From Candidatus Poribacteria bacterium (GTDB lineage: Bacteria; Poribacteria; WGA-4E; PCPOR2b): DNA of 64,000 bases. Positions within the stretch are counted from its first letter, which is position 1, and each line of letters starts with the position of its first letter. Below the pieces are notes generated by a model that did not search any database, was not told where the DNA came from, and was given only the letters and a program-made list of their open reading frames with translations. The translations under genes were made by a program, and so were the position numbers. The stretch spans positions 2,048,001-2,112,000 of the forward strand of contig OZ244587.1 of assembly GCA_965218095.1 (NCBI GenBank), given 5' to 3'. Positions 29,832-55,769 of the stretch are shown one piece after another.

Positions 29832-30667
29832 GGTTCTGTTGACATTTCAAGGGAGCCATATAAGAAGGGGGCCATATAAGAGTGGAGACAAAGCTGAGAA
29901 ATCCAAAATAACGGATAGCTAACTTCTCGAACCGAGAGAAGATGCGGCGATACCATTTTATCTTGTTAATGAAACATTCAACCCGATGTCTCTCTTTGTA
30001 CAGATGTTTGTCGTAATCTCTTTGATCCACACGATGACTTTTGGGCGGTATCACCGCAATCGCTCCATTCGCCTCAATAACCGCGATAAAATTGTCGGAG
30101 TCATATCCCTTGTCTCCAATCACATACTCGCTTTTATATCCAAGTATCAACCCTTCTGCTTCCGCTATGTCGTTTCTTTGACCGGGCGTCAGATGTATTC
30201 TTAGGGGATTACCCAGGCCGTCAACTGTGATGTGAATTTTTGTACTGAATCCCCCGCGAGAGCAGCCTAACGCTTGGTTTTCAGTGCCACCCTTTTTTTT
30301 TCGGCACCCGCCGCACACGGGTGCGCGCGAATGATTGTACTGTCCACAATAAGCGACTCGATATCGGGGTCAGAGGCGAAGTGGTGGTGCATCTGTGTGA
30401 AGATACCTTTGTCGCACCACCGAGCAAAACGCTTATAGAGGGTGTTCGATTTACCATAGGTGTCTGGCAGAAGTCCCCATTGAGCACCGCTACGGGTCGC
30501 CCAGAGAATAGCTTCGATAAAGCGGCGTGTTGTCGCTTCGTTGCCAACATAGATGTTGGGACAAGTTAGAAGAAACGAGTATATCTTATTCCATTGGTCA
30601 TCGGGTAAGGTTATTGGCATCATTCTTCTATTATGCCACAACCTTATACTCAAATGTCAACAGAACC
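29832..30667 (-). mobile_element. IS5-family (IS427-group-like) insertion sequence, copy 2; carries the exact protospacer of CRISPR spacer 1
   Basis: Same 16-bp TIRs and TA flanks as copy 1; orfA/orfB overlap at an A9 slippery run (30293-30301); one 16-nt duplication near the 3' end. Confidence 0.95.
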
Positions 30668-30874
30668 TAATTTGCAATGGATTTGGTAAGGTAGCGTATG
30701 TCTTCCGACTTGCGCCGTTGCGGATCACAAGTCAGGAAACTCCAATTGCATCGTGGGCAGGCTATGTGCTACGAATATTACTGGTTGGAACGCAAATTGG
30801 TATTAGGCCTTACAATCTACGCAATACGTGCCACACATCTCACACTATAGATCAAAATGGAAAAGGAGATTTTC

Positions 30875-52253: not shown

Positions 52254-53516
52254 ATGAACCACGACATTAAAAACCGAGAGCTCGCAGAAGATGGAAAGCG
52301 GCGAATTGATTGGGCGGATCGCTTTATGCCTGTCCTCCGTCTGATTCGCCAGCGGTTTGAGCAGGAACGTCCACTCAATGGCGTGCGGCTGTCCGCGTGT
52401 TTGCATGTCACGACAGAAACGGCGAACCTGGTGCGTGCCTTGAAGGCAGGCGGTGCAGAAGTTGTTTTGTGTGCTTCCAATCCGTTGAGCACCCAGGACG
52501 ACGTTGCGGCGTCTCTTGTCATGCATGAGGGAATCCCCATTTTCGCAATCAAGGGCGAGGACACTGAAACCTACTACCAACATCTCGATGAAGCGGTCAA
52601 TTTTCAACCGATGATGACGATGGATGATGGGGCGGATCTGGTCTCTCGGCTCCACTCTGAAGAGGCGAACCCTGCCTTTGTCGAAAACGTGCTTGCAGGT
52701 ACGGAGGAGACAACAACGGGGGTTATCCGACTCAAGAGTATGGCAGCCGAAGGGGTGCTTCGGTATCCAATCATTGCCGTAAACGACGCCAAGACCAAGC
52801 ACTTCTTTGATAATCGCTACGGTACGGGTCAAAGTACGCTAGACGGTATCATTCGCGCGACCAATTTGTTGATCGCCGGGACGACTATCGCCGTCGCGGG
52901 CTACGGGTGGTGTGGACGCGGTTTTGCCAGTCGGGCGCGGGGGTTGGGGGCGAATGTCATTGTCACGGAAGTCGATCCGTTGAGCGCGTTGGAAGCAGTG
53001 ATGGACGGCTTCCGCGTCTTGCCGATGATTAAAGCTGTCGCCGAAGCCGATCTCGTCGTTACGCTGACGGGCGATATTCATGTGTTGCGCCGCGAGCACT
53101 TTGAAGCGATGAAGGATGGCGCGATTATTTGTAATTCGGGGCATTTCAATGTCGAAATTAACATCCCCGATCTCAAAGATTTAAGCACCGAGGTGAGAAC
53201 CACGCGAGAGTTTGTCGAGGAATATTCCCTCAAGGATGGGCGCAAGCTCTACCTGCTCGGCGAAGGAAGGCTGATAAATCTCGTTTCGGCGGAGGGGCAC
53301 CCCGCTAGTGTCATGGATATGAGTTTCGCTAATCAGGCGCTGTCTGCGGAGTACGTTGTTAAAAACCATCAACAGATGGAAAATCGTGTTTATGACGTGC
53401 CGGAAGAACTGGATGCCTCTATTGCAAAACTCAAATTGCAATCCATCGGCGTTGAAATTGATGAACTGACGGAAGAACAGCGGACTTATCTCAGTTCTTG
53501 GACGATGGGAACATAG
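52254..53516 (+). CDS. ahcY: Adenosylhomocysteinase
   Basis: [39 protein letters not shown]. Confidence 0.98.
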
Positions 53517-53537
53517 CGTAAAACGTAAGATGCCACC

Positions 53538-53726
53538 GTTTCAATCTTATAAGGGTTTGGTTCGGCGTTGCAACTTACCCAGGCCGTCAACTGTGATGTG
53601 AATTTTTGTACTGGTTTCAATCTTATAAGGGTTTGGTTCGGCGTTGCAACCCCGGCAGTTCTAATGACCGTGCGAACAAACTTGTTACCGTTTCAATCTT
53701 ATAAGGGTTTGGTTCGGCGTTGCAAC
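53538..53726 (+). CRISPR. CRISPR mini-array: 3 identical 37-bp repeats and 2 spacers of 39 bp
   Basis: Repeat GTTTCAATCTTATAAGGGTTTGGTTCGGCGTTGCAAC at 53538-53574, 53614-53650, 53690-53726; spacers at 53575-53613 and 53651-53689; strand inferred from the downstream anti-repeat, omegaRNA and iscB. Confidence 0.95.
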
Positions 53727-53833
53727 CCCGGCGCCTCTGGGAGCCTTGACGTTGTTGGGGTTTTCAACTCTTTTTCTGTCAGCCCCTCCCCAATCGGGGA
53801 GGAGGACACGGTTTGGGGGGATAAGGTAAGTCG

Positions 53834-54217
53834 GTGACAACGCCGAAACCCTTATAGGTGTTGCAAAGCCGGGCTTTCCTGTCAGTCTGCGGGGTTTTTA
53901 TTAGCCCTAGGGTTGGCAGGATTAAATCCTTATAAGGTATCCCTTTAAGTGGTAGATTCTAATTACACTCACACCTAGAAACAGCCTTAGCCCGTGAGTT
54001 GAAAGGAATCTGGGCTACGTTGGTATGATTAGCATACCCTGGGGTGCTCCACCAGCCCCAGGCACTATGGCGGCTCTTTAAGAAGGACTTGGGGAGGTTC
54101 GGTCAACCGCATTTCGCACTCACTTTGAGTGAAAGTCACACCAACATTGGCGGGGTGGATCATACCTATTACCCCCCTATCTCCCTCCCGCAAGCGGGGA
54201 GGGGGAAGGGAGGTAAT
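53834..54217 (+). ncRNA. tracrRNA-like anti-repeat joined to an omegaRNA/HEARO-like scaffold (boundaries approximate)
   Basis: CAACGCCG-AAACCCTTATA (53838-53856) is complementary to the repeat with a 4-nt bulge; HEARO-like CTACGTT, stem CCTGGGGTGCTCCACCAGCCCCAGG (54038-54062), AACATTGGCG; pseudoknot pair TCCACC 54048-54053/GGTGGA 54154-54159; terminal hairpin 54168-54217. Confidence 0.85.
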
Positions 54218-54227
54218 GGAGGTCAAT

Positions 54228-55769
54228 ATGTTTGTTCATGTTTTATCAAAATCAGGTCAGCCGTTGATGCCCACGCATCCGGCAAACGCACGTAAACTGC
54301 TTAGAGACGAAAAAGCCCAAGTTGCGAAAACTAAAACGGGCGTGTTTACGATTCAACTCAATTATGAATCTCTAACATATACGCAACCGATAACCGTTGG
54401 AATTGACACCGGCTCAAAATCTGTGCCGATCGCCGCAGAGGGCAACGGCAAAATTTACTACGCCAAGGAGAAACTATTACGGACGGATGTTAAGAATCGA
54501 CTTTCCGATCGGCGTCAACAGAGGAGAATCCGAAGACACCGTAAAACCCGGTATCGGAAACCTCGTTTTTTGAACCGCACCAAAACGAAATGCAGCCGTT
54601 GCGGTGTCAATAATGTGCCGTGTTTATGGACTCTCAAAAAGCGCGAAGAGGGGCAGACAAAGAAGTGGGTTAAGGGTCGGAGAAAATCTTTATGCAGACC
54701 TTGTAAAGGGCATAAAGGAGAGCATAAGCAACCGACTGTGTTAGCCCCTTCAATTAAGAACCGTGCGGAGAGTATTCTAAATGATGTAGAGAGACTGCGG
54801 AAAACCCTGCCCATCTCTAAGGTGGTCGTAGAAACGGCGTCATTCGATACTCAGAAGATGGCAGATCCGAAAATTAAAGGCGTCGAATACCAGCAGGGAA
54901 CCCTCGCCGGGTACGAGTTGAAAGAGTATCTGCTGATAGTGAACAAGCATACATGCGCCTATTGTGGTAAAAAGGATGTCCCCCTTGAAAGGGAACATAT
55001 TTTGCCCAAAGCCAAGGGAGGCAGCGATCGCATTGATAACGCGACGGTCGCTTGTGTGTCTTGCAATGCCGAAAAAGGCGCGAGGACATTAGATCAGTGG
55101 GAAGAGTCACTGCCAGAGGCGGACGCTCGTAGGCAGGGGATACAGCGGGTTCGGAAAAATGCGAATGTCAAAAAAGAATTCCAGTATTCGGCATTGACCC
55201 AATCCTATAAGAATTATTTGATGAAGTCATTGCGCGAACAGTTCCCTGTAATTGAGGAGACTTACGGTTACATGACGAAGTTCTACCGGATTCGACGGAA
55301 GCTTGACAAAACCCAGATAAACGATGCTATGGTGATTGCATCAGAAGGGGAGCCGTTCCAACTACCGGATCGATTTCTTATAGAGAAGCAGATCAAGAAA
55401 CGGCATCCATATCATTCTATCTCGGACCGACATGGTTATAAAATCGTCAAGTATAAGCGCGATCCTGAAAAATATGGTTTCCGCCTATGGGATCGAGTGA
55501 GTTTCAATCATAAGGAATTCGGAGAAGTGGTTGCTTATATCTCTGCGCTGAAAGAGGATGGCTATTTTGAAATGCGCGATATTGAAGGAGGGAAAATTAA
55601 GGGAAAGCGTCCGACCTGTTCACATAAAAAGTTAAAATTGATAGAACCCGCGAGAACAAACTACATAAGGGAATGGCGCGTAACGCGGACTTCGACGAGC
55701 TCAGACTTCGTCGATCCATTGTTAGCCGGTCCTGCCGAACAACTTCACCTGTTCTCGCTTATGTCATAG
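54228..55769 (+). CDS. iscB: CRISPR-associated IscB RNA-guided endonuclease (513 aa)
   Basis: GQPLMPT (PLMP), RuvC-I GIDTG (D60), Arg-rich bridge helix RRQQRRIRRHRKTRYRKPRFLNR, RuvC-II VVETASFD (E202), HNH CAYC..EHILPKAKGGSD..N..ACVSCN, RuvC-III KTQINDA; GGAGGT RBS before ATG 54228. Confidence 0.95.
   Translation: MFVHVLSKSGQPLMPTHPANARKLLRDEKAQVAKTKTGVFTIQLNYESLTYTQPITVGIDTGSKSVPIAAEGNGKIYYAKEKLLRTDVKNRLSDRRQQRRIRRHRKTRYRKPRFLNRTKTKCSRCGVNNVPCLWTLKKREEGQTKKWVKGRRKSLCRPCKGHKGEHKQPTVLAPSIKNRAESILNDVERLRKTLPISKVVVETASFDTQKMADPKIKGVEYQQGTLAGYELKEYLLIVNKHTCAYCGKKDVPLEREHILPKAKGGSDRIDNATVACVSCNAEKGARTLDQWEESLPEADARRQGIQRVRKNANVKKEFQYSALTQSYKNYLMKSLREQFPVIEETYGYMTKFYRIRRKLDKTQINDAMVIASEGEPFQLPDRFLIEKQIKKRHPYHSISDRHGYKIVKYKRDPEKYGFRLWDRVSFNHKEFGEVVAYISALKEDGYFEMRDIEGGKIKGKRPTCSHKKLKLIEPARTNYIREWRVTRTSTSSDFVDPLLAGPAEQLHLFSLMS

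What the first reader, a model, noticed from the sequence alone, without database searches (positions are those of the whole stretch)
55308..55328. RuvC-III His replaced by Gln: natural nickase that could explain tolerated self-targeting
Seen: KTQINDA (CAG at 55314-55316, Q363) where IscB and Cas9 normally have K(S/T)HxxDA. RuvC D60, E202, D366 and the HNH His (H257) are retained. Established: mutating the equivalent His of SpCas9 (H983) impairs RuvC cleavage. Inference: HNH-only nicking or attenuated cutting would let the cell survive a perfect chromosomal target. The codon is one base from His, so a recent escape mutation is also possible.
Basis: partly seen in the sequence, partly recalled or inferred. 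Interest (0 to 1): 0.7.

Follow-up and report, generated by a model that had tools for sequence, protein, structure and literature searches.

The report
Ancient Gln variant in IscB nuclease
The glutamine that replaces a catalytic histidine in this small RNA-guided nuclease is real, but it is an old, conserved trait of a whole branch of the family rather than a recent rescue mutation, so it does not by itself explain why the cell survives a guide aimed at its own DNA.

Summary
ORF 54228-55769(+) is an IscB with KTQINDA at 55308-55328, and Q363 (CAG) sits where TbaIscB and OgeuIscB have the RuvC-III His.

The "recent escape mutation" reading is refuted. Gln is the state of a well-supported clade: 75 Q, 3 H and 1 R among 79 rows, while all 60 rows outside have His. 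Both CAA and CAG encode it. D60, E202, D366 and the HNH His stay conserved in the clade, and Q-type gene pairs give dN/dS of 0.07-0.18.

Gln co-varies with a Gly-to-Pro change seven residues after D60. The three nested His rows all carry Gly again.

Q-type IscBs occur with ωRNAs, as diverged copies in one genome, and once beside an 11-repeat CRISPR array.

Published Cas9 work shows His-to-Asn or Asp can keep RuvC cutting, while His-to-Ala does not.

My best reading is an alternative metal-ligand configuration, possibly slower or Mn-preferring. A clade-wide nickase is not excluded.

The self-targeting is real and large: the 16 spacer-1 bases next to the repeat match 70 IS sites exactly. It is better explained by a missing TAM or recent acquisition.

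The parts
54228..55769 (+). IscB gene (513 aa plus stop), carrying the PLMP/RRXRR N-terminus, an Arg-rich bridge helix, a Cys4 insert, RuvC I/II/III and an inserted HNH
   Evidence: Pfam RRXRR 1.6e-51 and HNH_5 2.5e-12. Foldseek top hits are IscB structures 8csz, 9liq, 9nvu and 9k30. phmmer against the PDB gives TbaIscB at E 6.4e-49. It is the only copy in the genome.
55308..55328 (+). RuvC-III motif KTQINDA. Q363 (CAG, 55314-55316) stands at the metal-ligand His position, followed by D366.
   Evidence: The column reads Q in 87 of 121 nearest sequences and H in 116 of 125 non-gap wider representatives.
54405..54428 (+). RuvC-I motif GIDTGSKSVP with D60 and P67. Pro replaces the Gly that 99% of His-type IscBs have at D+7.
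   Evidence: Pair counts are (H,G) 141, (Q,P) 72, (Q,S) 2, (H,W) 1 and (H,A) 1.
54591..54704 (+). Clade-specific Cys4 (CxxC...CxxC) insert between the bridge helix and RuvC-II (C122, C125, C156, C159)
   Evidence: These columns are at least 96% conserved in the Q set and 93-97% gap in the His set.
54951..55070 (+). HNH core (C243, C246, H257, N271, C276, C279, N280), intact
   Evidence: These columns are invariant in alignments A1 and A2. Pfam HNH hits.
53833..54165 (+). tracr-like ωRNA: an anti-repeat (about 53833-53865) followed by the HEARO/ωRNA scaffold (53897-54165)
   Evidence: Rfam RF02033 scores 75.3 bits, E 2.3e-14, below the gathering score of 83. The repeat:anti-repeat duplex is -35.1 kcal/mol against -19.8 +/- 3.4 for shuffles. 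RNA-library contigs cover 53837-54149 and 53836-54155 at depth 54-60.
53538..53726 (+). Mini CRISPR array: three identical 37-nt repeats (starting at 53538, 53614, 53690) and two 39-nt spacers (sp1 53575-53613, sp2 53651-53689)
   Evidence: The repeat occurs nowhere else in the genome. A related strain's contig has a single repeat, skipping 152 nt.
29865..30669 (-). In-window copy of the 805-bp IS5-family insertion sequence that carries the sp1 protospacer (30209-30247, on the + strand, inside the DDE ORF)
   Evidence: Pfam DUF4096 and DDE_Tnp_1. There are 120 full-length copies in the genome.

Best explanation
Gln363 is the inherited state of a distinct IscB clade, not a lesion of this gene. 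In that clade the RuvC site was remodelled as a pair. The metal-ligand His of RuvC-III became Gln, and the Gly seven residues after the RuvC-I Asp became Pro. The three carboxylates (D60, E202, D366) and the HNH site stayed fixed.

I infer that the Gln amide oxygen takes over the metal-A ligand role of the His, so the RuvC site still binds metal and most likely still cuts the non-target strand. It may do so more slowly or with a shifted metal preference, as seen for the engineered Cas9 His-to-Asn variants.

The residue therefore does not specifically explain why this cell tolerates spacer 1. That tolerance more likely comes from an unsuitable target-adjacent motif at the IS sites, because the spacer was probably taken up by an adaptation module that does not select for this IscB's TAM. 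Low effector level and the recency of the spacer may add to it.

What is shown: clade-wide conservation, co-variation, context and expression of the ωRNA. What is inferred: metal ligation by Gln, retained cleavage, and the TAM explanation.
For: 1. Phylogeny. In a FastTree of 139 full-length rows, one clade (support 100) holds 75 Q, 3 H and 1 R, and all 60 rows outside hold H. An IQ-TREE mixture model on 47 rows gives the same clade, with 31 Q, 3 H and 1 R.

2. Selection on the amino acid. Six of 11 Q-type loci use CAA and 5 use CAG. Q-type pairs have dN/dS of 0.07-0.18.

3. The rest of the site is kept. In 75 full-length Q rows, D60 is present in 71 of 73 non-gap rows, E202 in 75/75, H257 in 75/75, K361 in 74/75 and D366 in 75/75.

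4. Coupled change. Pairs at positions 363 and 67 are (H,G) 141, (Q,P) 72, (Q,S) 2, (H,W) 1 and (H,A) 1. The three His rows nested in the clade all have Gly67. The AU test rejects placing them outside the clade (p 0.0006).

5. Context of Q-type genes. A HEARO/ωRNA hit lies upstream in 6 of 6 loci tested. Two copies in one MAG share a 1,943-nt element that begins at the ωRNA. One locus has an 11-repeat array with an anti-repeat.

6. Published enzymology. SpCas9 H983D behaves like wild type, H983N similarly (data not shown in that paper), and H983A is sharply reduced (PMC8112549, section 6 read). AceCas9 H750N is near wild type in vitro with Mn2+ (PMC10861241, section 7 read).

7. Timing. A related strain has the same IscB but a single repeat and no spacers, so Gln long predates the self-target.
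Against: No Q-type IscB has been assayed in anything I could search.

Gln is not Asn or Asp, and AceCas9 H750N failed the in-cell survival assay unless an enhancing mutation was added, while H750D was strongly reduced. In a His-type CRISPR-associated IscB (DelIscB), H324A gives a nickase, so the position matters in IscB too.

Two rows of one sub-clade have lost D60 (P0121 D-to-G; P0074 D-to-L with R at 363). This hints that RuvC is dispensable at least there.

The co-variation rests on only 4 switches (2 on well-supported branches) and is not statistically significant. The AU group was named after the tree was seen.

Within this lineage, the listed differences from another strain give dN/dS of about 0.47 (13.5 synonymous, 22.5 non-synonymous, from a partial list), which suggests relaxed constraint here.

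I had no model coordinates, so the proximity of P67 to Q363 and to a metal is not measured. The TAM of this enzyme is unknown, so the TAM explanation is untested.
Confidence: 0.58

Rival explanations
1. Clade-wide natural nickase or strongly attenuated cutter. Gln cannot replace the His in catalysis, so Q-type IscBs cut only the target strand with HNH. This is the mirror image of IsrB. On this view the D/E/D residues are kept for metal or DNA binding rather than for cleavage. In this genome that would blunt the damage from spacer 1.
For: His-to-Ala at this position makes nickases of SpCas9 and DelIscB. AceCas9 H750N gave no growth in the cell assay without an enhancer mutation. Two clade members have lost D60 while keeping HNH. 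An IscB with inactivated RuvC and active HNH has already been proposed as a nickase in another system (PMC10910872, passage read). The cell carries 70 exact 16-nt matches to the guide end of spacer 1 and is alive.
Against: D60, E202 and D366 are retained in essentially all Q rows over more than one substitution per site of divergence. Gln itself is held through synonymous turnover. The paired G67P change and its joint reversal argue that site geometry is under selection. SpCas9 H983N and H983D remain active in vitro. Nicks at dozens of chromosomal sites would still be hazardous at replication (inference).
Confidence: 0.25
2. Recent escape mutation. A His codon in this genome mutated to CAG after the self-targeting spacer was acquired.
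For: CAG is one base from a His codon. The self-target is real.
Against: Gln is found in 87 of 121 nearest sequences, down to about 37% identity, and is ancestral on both trees. The 99%-identical P0001 has it. Contigs of two other strains cover the codon with no difference listed there, including the strain that lacks the spacers, although 18 rows of that table were not shown.
Confidence: 0.01
3. The locus is simply idle or decaying in this lineage. Spacer 1 is an accidental self-derived spacer, and the effector is too weakly expressed or too relaxed in function to harm the cell, whatever residue 363 is.
For: RNA-library contigs over the ORF have depth 2-4, against 54-60 for the ωRNA. dN/dS against another strain is about 0.47. 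The array is tiny, and a sister strain has no spacers. There are no cas1/cas2 genes at the locus; Cas1 genes lie at 3.42 and 4.78 Mb. IS diversity shows no sign of escape in the protospacer plus flank (72nd percentile).
Against: The ORF is full length with every catalytic residue apart from the clade-wide Gln. The ωRNA is abundant in two RNA libraries. Contig depths are a poor measure of expression, and the dN/dS value comes from a partial list with few changes.
Confidence: 0.3

Closest known systems
TbaIscB (PDB 9k30), the closest solved relative
   Same: Best PDB sequence match (E 6.4e-49 over residues 2-372). It shares the PLMP start, the Arg-rich bridge helix, a Cys-containing insert before RuvC-II, the HNH domain and the motif K-T-x-x-N-D-A.
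   Different: TbaIscB has His in the motif and Gly at D+7, as read from the alignment. It is described as the founding IscB of the Cas9 lineage and as active in human cells (PMC13180657, passages read).
DelIscB, an engineered CRISPR-associated IscB (PMC12660989)
   Same: An IscB guided by an upstream ncRNA with a CRISPR array and repeat/anti-repeat pairing (passages read), as found here.
   Different: DelIscB has His (H324), and H324A turns it into a nickase. I could not align its sequence to the window protein.
OgeuIscB-ωRNA (PDB 7utn, 7xht, 8csz)
   Same: Same fold and domain order, with an ωRNA of the HEARO family upstream.
   Different: It has His at RuvC-III and no Cys4 insert, and it uses a single ωRNA with a built-in guide rather than a crRNA plus anti-repeat.
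Engineered Cas9 metal-ligand variants: SpCas9 H983N/H983D and AceCas9 H750N/H750D
   Same: They carry an amide or carboxylate side chain at the same RuvC-III position. The His is described as the metal-A ligand.
   Different: These are laboratory point mutants with Asn or Asp, not Gln, and without the compensating Gly-to-Pro change. Their activity ranges from wild-type-like to strongly reduced, depending on the enzyme and the metal.
IsrB (PDB 8dmb) and the RuvC-inactivated IscB linked to Cas12 (PMC10910872)
   Same: Both are natural relatives thought to nick rather than cut both strands (the IsrB nickase property is recalled from the literature, not read here).
   Different: IsrB lacks HNH altogether, whereas the window protein has an intact HNH and an intact D/E/D. 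I do not know which RuvC residues are lost in the Cas12-linked IscB.

Membership tests
IscB (OMEGA RNA-guided endonuclease) | N-terminal PLMP/RRXRR region with an Arg-rich bridge helix | tested here: met
   Pfam PF14239 RRXRR, E 1.6e-51, 175 bits against a cut-off of 25. The sequence GQPLMPTHP is present.
IscB (OMEGA RNA-guided endonuclease) | HNH domain inserted in a split RuvC domain | tested here: met
   HNH_5 and HNH hits at residues 276-324 of the long ORF. C243, C246, H257, N271, C276, C279 and N280 are invariant. The fold matches IscB structures.
IscB (OMEGA RNA-guided endonuclease) | RuvC catalytic set D...E...H..D | tested here: not met
   D60, E202 and D366 are present, but the His position holds Gln. 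This is a clade-wide variant, so I file the protein as a variant IscB and not as a non-member.
IscB (OMEGA RNA-guided endonuclease) | Structured ωRNA (HEARO) encoded directly upstream | tested here: met
   RF02033 at 53897-54165, 75.3 bits, E 2.3e-14, covering the full model but below the gathering score of 83. RNA-library contigs at depth 54-60 cover it.
IscB (OMEGA RNA-guided endonuclease) | RNA-guided, TAM-dependent double-strand DNA cleavage | not testable with these tools
   This needs biochemistry. The TAM is unknown.
CRISPR-associated IscB (CasIscB) | CRISPR array beside the gene, with an anti-repeat in the upstream ncRNA | tested here: met
   Three identical 37-nt repeats and two 39-nt spacers. 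The repeat:anti-repeat duplex is -35.1 kcal/mol against -19.8 +/- 3.4 for shuffles.
CRISPR-associated IscB (CasIscB) | Adaptation genes (cas1/cas2) at the locus | tested here: not met
   No Cas1 lies at the locus. The two Cas1 genes in the genome sit at 3.42 and 4.78 Mb, beside other arrays with different repeats. I do not know whether this feature is required of CasIscB loci.
Cas9 (type II effector) | REC lobe and a size of about 700-1400 aa | tested here: not met
   The protein is 513 aa. Cas9 chains align only over the RuvC/HNH parts, with TM-scores of 0.37 or less.
IsrB-type natural nickase | Absence of the HNH domain | tested here: not met
   HNH is present and intact.

The most novel reading that the evidence does not exclude
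The Gln/Pro clade is a natural class of IscB whose RuvC site is switched down, acting either as an HNH-only nickase or as a Mn-dependent slow cutter. Lineages toggle between this state and the His/Gly full-nuclease state. In this cyanobacterium-like genome the switched-down enzyme has been coupled to a CRISPR array whose newest spacer is antisense to the transposase of a 120-copy IS. It therefore acts as a non-lethal, RNA-guided brake (binding or nicking) on that IS rather than as a suicidal nuclease.
Probability: 0.15. Interest if true: 0.8.

Novelty: new variant of a known kind. Interest (0 to 1): 0.5.

Why it matters
IscB is the compact ancestor of Cas9 and is being engineered heavily as a nuclease and as a nickase for base editing.

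A natural, long-lived clade has exchanged the metal-ligand His for Gln together with a second active-site residue, and has switched back at least twice. This is a ready-made experiment on how the RuvC site tolerates ligand changes. It could yield enzymes with different metal dependence, slower non-target-strand cutting or native nickase behaviour.

One paper states that the catalytic residues are universally conserved in all known Cas9s (PMC10861241, passage read), so a conserved exception in the sister family deserves a bench test.

For this genome, the result removes an attractive but wrong story, the escape mutation. It redirects the question of tolerated self-targeting (70 exact guide-end matches) to TAM compatibility, expression and spacer age.

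Tried and rejected
Leads that gave nothing or could not be followed:
- I looked for a close orthologue to date the change. None was found in 60 related genomes (best 41% identity), and the single-protein scan of genome contigs found nothing. Only the 99%-identical P0001 and run contigs were available.
- I looked for targets of spacer 2 to infer a TAM. There was no match in phages, plasmids or viral contigs and none in the own genome. The TAM stays unknown.
- I tested for escape selection in the IS. Diversity of the protospacer plus 10-nt flank is at the 72nd percentile of 49-nt windows, which is unremarkable.
- The promoter scan of 53400-54300 found 0 sigma-70-like sites, which is uninformative for this organism. 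It found three terminator-like sites against 1.4 expected.
- The co-variation statistics gave only 2 (starred) to 4 independent pairs, so no significance is possible.
- Parts of the stretch without RNA contigs (for example 54692-55213) are no evidence of silence.
- I could not measure distances in the AF2 model, because coordinates are not exposed to scripts.
- Literature searches for a Gln at this position in IscB found no paper describing it. The 'glutamine' hits were single occurrences that I did not open, apart from the papers read.
The ortholog lists of PMC13180657, PMC11666462 and PMC12660989 may include Q-type enzymes that I could not see.

I considered and rejected three ideas:
- Misalignment of the column: rejected by three independent alignments.
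- RNA editing of the codon: an RNA contig over 55270-55484 has no difference.
- A second IscB copy supplying a His-type enzyme: there is only one copy.
Full report
**1. The observation**

The stretch 55308-55328 translates to KTQINDA, with CAG at 55314-55316. The surrounding ORF (54129-55769) is best started at the ATG of 54228, which gives MFVHVLSKSGQPLMP. That matches the consensus N-terminus of the homologues and gives a 513-aa protein.

Pfam finds RRXRR (E 1.6e-51) and HNH domains. An AlphaFold2 model built from 61 aligned sequences has a mean pLDDT of 83.3. Its best PDB matches are IscB-ωRNA complexes: 8csz, 9liq, OrufIscB 9nvu and TbaIscB 9k30. In sequence searches of the PDB the best match is TbaIscB (E 6.4e-49). 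Q363 aligns with the His of 'pktHmnda' in TbaIscB and of 'pkdHylda' in OgeuIscB-type chains. So the protein is an IscB, and Gln does occupy the RuvC-III His position.

**2. How common is Gln?**

I aligned the 120 best hits of the 5.8-billion-protein search with the window protein. The column reads Q in 87, H in 29, R in 1 and gap in 4.

In the separate search of 50%-identity representatives, the 146 new sequences read H in 116, gap in 21, Q in 1 (P0121, the same clade) and other, mostly misaligned, residues in 8. His is therefore the family norm, and Gln is concentrated around the window protein.

A FastTree of 139 full-length rows places the Gln rows in one clade with support 100 and a stem of 0.41. 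That clade has 75 Q, 3 H (P0034, P0055, P0059) and 1 R (P0074). All 60 rows outside it have His. An IQ-TREE mixture-model tree of 47 rows recovers the same clade with 31 Q, 3 H and 1 R.

The window protein and its 99%-identical twin P0001 sit on a long branch inside it, more than one substitution per site from the next members. The Gln is therefore old. The 'recent escape mutation' option is refuted.

**3. Is the RuvC site still under selection?**

Within the 75 full-length Gln rows, conservation is as follows:

| Residue | Conserved |
|---|---|
| D60 | 71 of 73 non-gap rows |
| E202 | 75/75 |
| H257 (HNH) | 75/75 |
| K361 | 74/75 |
| D366 | 75/75 |

Among 11 fetched Q-type loci the Gln codon is CAA in 6 and CAG in 5, so the amino acid is held through synonymous change. 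Pairs of Q-type genes give dN/dS of 0.07-0.18.

A clade signature accompanies the Gln:
- Pro at position 67, where 99% of His-type sequences have Gly. This is the Gly seven residues after the RuvC-I Asp.
- A Cys4 insert (C122, C125, C156, C159).
- A changed helix at 321-327.

The 363/67 pairs are (H,G) 141, (Q,P) 72, (Q,S) 2, (H,W) 1 and (H,A) 1. The three His rows nested inside the clade all carry Gly67. An AU test rejects a tree that keeps all Gln/Arg rows together without them (ΔlnL 81, p 0.0006), with the caveat that the group was named after the tree was seen. So the two residues appear to have switched together at least two or three times. The number of independent switches (2 on well-supported branches, 4 in all) is too small for a significance test.

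Against this picture, two rows of one sub-clade have lost D60: P0121 (D to G) and P0074 (D to L, with Arg at 363).

**4. Context of Q-type genes**

All 6 Q-type loci I tested have a HEARO/ωRNA match directly upstream of the gene, at 40-79 bits, all below the Rfam gathering score of 83.

One Spirochaetia MAG holds three copies (L004, L005, L068). L004 and L005 share 1,943 nt at 88.6% identity, and the shared stretch begins exactly where the ωRNA match begins. That is what is expected of a mobile IscB element whose guide lies outside it.

Of the 8 Q-type loci whose upstream 1.4-1.7 kb I searched, L085 alone has a CRISPR array: 11 repeats with a period of 65-66. It also has an anti-repeat at the start of its ωRNA. 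Q-type IscBs thus sit in the ordinary working contexts of the family.

**5. What is known about this position**

- In SpCas9 the His (H983) is described as the ligand of metal A. H983D cleaves like wild type, H983N likewise (data not shown in that paper), and H983A is sharply reduced (PMC8112549, section 6 read).
- In AceCas9, H750N prefers Mn2+ and is near wild type in vitro with Mn2+. It gives no growth in a cell-survival assay unless an enhancing mutation is added. H750D is strongly reduced (PMC10861241, section 7 read).
- In the CRISPR-associated DelIscB, H324A gives a nickase (PMC12660989, passages read).
- The same Cas9 paper states that the catalytic residues are universally conserved in known Cas9s.
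- A natural IscB with inactivated RuvC and active HNH has already been proposed as a nickase, in a Cas12-linked system (PMC10910872, passage read).
- My searches found no paper that describes Gln at this position in IscB. Supplementary tables that might list tested Q-type orthologs are closed.

The published data therefore show that removing the side chain kills RuvC. An oxygen ligand of another kind can sustain it, at a cost that depends on the enzyme and the metal.

**6. The locus around the gene**

Upstream lie three identical 37-nt repeats (53538, 53614, 53690) with two 39-nt spacers. Next comes an anti-repeat at about 53833-53865, which pairs with the repeat at -35.1 kcal/mol (shuffles give -19.8 ± 3.4). 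After that comes the HEARO scaffold at 53897-54165. This is a CRISPR-associated IscB.

The repeat occurs nowhere else in the 6.35-Mb genome, and the IscB is single-copy. Two Cas1 genes lie far away, beside large arrays with different repeats but a similar period of 73-76.

**7. The self-target**

Spacer 1 matches 18 other sites perfectly over 39 nt. Its repeat-proximal 16 nt matches 70 sites exactly, with flanks AATCCCCC (39 sites), AAACCGCC (27) or variants.

The target lies inside an 805-bp IS5-family element (DUF4096 plus DDE_Tnp_1) that has 120 full-length copies. The protospacer sits in the DDE ORF, and the crRNA would be complementary to the transposase coding strand.

Sequence diversity of the IS copies in the protospacer plus flank is unremarkable, at the 72nd percentile. 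Spacer 2 matches nothing.

**8. Expression and strain variation**

All runs were laid as Logan contigs, which show presence, not ends or levels.

- In two metatranscriptome runs of one study, contigs cover 53837-54149 and 53836-54155 at depth 54 and 60. This is the anti-repeat plus ωRNA.
- Pieces of the IscB ORF appear at depth 2-4. One spans the Gln codon without any difference.
- A DNA run of a related strain (49 differences in 2,214 nt) joins 53534 to 53687, skipping 152 nt, which is two repeat-spacer units. That strain therefore has one repeat and no spacers, yet the same IscB.
- No difference is listed at the Gln codon for that strain or for a second strain, though 18 rows of the table were not shown.
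- The listed differences from that strain fall in 31 codons of the ORF, 11 synonymous and 20 not. This gives dN/dS of about 0.47, with a cluster at 55511-55613 in the C-terminal domain.

The array is thus variable between strains, and the Gln predates the spacer.

**9. Reading**

The simplest account is that Gln363 is an inherited, selected alternative to the His as metal-A ligand, paired with Pro67, in a clade of otherwise ordinary IscBs. I rate retained RuvC cleavage, perhaps slower or with a shifted metal preference, at about 0.55-0.6, and a clade-wide nickase or strongly attenuated enzyme at about 0.25.

Either way, the residue is not a response to spacer 1. Tolerance of 70 potential sites is more economically explained as follows.
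- The TAM may not fit. If a foreign adaptation module supplied the spacer, there would be no selection for this IscB's TAM. For TAMs of the published complexity (NAC for DelIscB and NWRRNA for OgeuIscB), only a few percent of random flanks would fit. This step is inference.
- Effector level may be low.
- The spacer may be recent.

None of these could be tested here.

**10. Verdict**

What is new is the clade-wide Gln/Pro configuration and its apparent toggling with His/Gly, which I did not find in print. I score it as a new variant of a known kind, with interest 0.5.

Noticed in passing
window 53538-54165: The IscB is CRISPR-associated. A 3-repeat, 2-spacer mini-array lies upstream, followed by an anti-repeat fused to a HEARO-type ωRNA. 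RNA-library contigs at depth 54-60 start at 53836/53837, at the anti-repeat, and end at 54149/54155.
   Followed up: yes
window 53575-53613; the in-window target at 30209-30247: Spacer 1 matches 18 other genomic sites perfectly, and its last 16 nt match 70 sites. All lie in an 805-bp IS5-family element with 120 full-length copies in two subfamilies. The crRNA would be antisense to the transposase mRNA in the DDE region.
   Followed up: yes
window 53534-53687: A contig of a related strain (run X7) skips 152 nt here. It has a single repeat and no spacers but keeps the IscB and ωRNA, so the array is gained or lost between close strains.
   Followed up: partly
window 55511-55613: A dense cluster of differences between strains (16 of the 36 listed ORF changes, 8 residue changes at E433-P462) falls in the C-terminal domain, the part expected to read the TAM. 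It could reflect recombination or diversifying selection.
   Followed up: partly
own genome C1:3424072-3432518 and C1:4784269-4788695: Two large CRISPR arrays (roughly 110 and 55 repeats, period 73-76) lie next to Cas1 genes. One repeat begins GTTTCAAC, like the IscB array's GTTTCAAT, so it is a possible source of spacer uptake in trans.
   Followed up: partly
L085:487-3027: A second Q-type IscB (50% identical) has an 11-repeat array with a quite different ~30-nt repeat and its own anti-repeat at 1386-1398. CRISPR association therefore arose, or diversified, more than once in this clade.
   Followed up: partly
L004:1290-3227 and L005:3641-5577: Two Q-type IscB copies in one Spirochaetia MAG share a 1.94-kb unit (ωRNA plus gene) at 88.6% identity with unrelated flanks. 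A third, more diverged copy is L068.
   Followed up: partly
proteins P0074 and P0121: Two members of one Q sub-clade have lost the RuvC-I Asp (to Leu and to Gly) while keeping E202, D366 and the HNH His. They are candidates for truly RuvC-dead natural nickases.
   Followed up: no
window 54591-54704 (residues 122-159): A CxxC...CxxC insert between the bridge helix and RuvC-II is specific to this clade and is partly shared with TbaIscB. It may be a small zinc ribbon in the place where Cas9 has its REC lobe.
   Followed up: no
own genome C1:628054-628614, 1673966-1674303 and 5598699-5598994: These are short tandem arrays with a 66-nt period and shared units. My k-mer scan picked them up, but they do not look like CRISPR arrays.
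   Followed up: no
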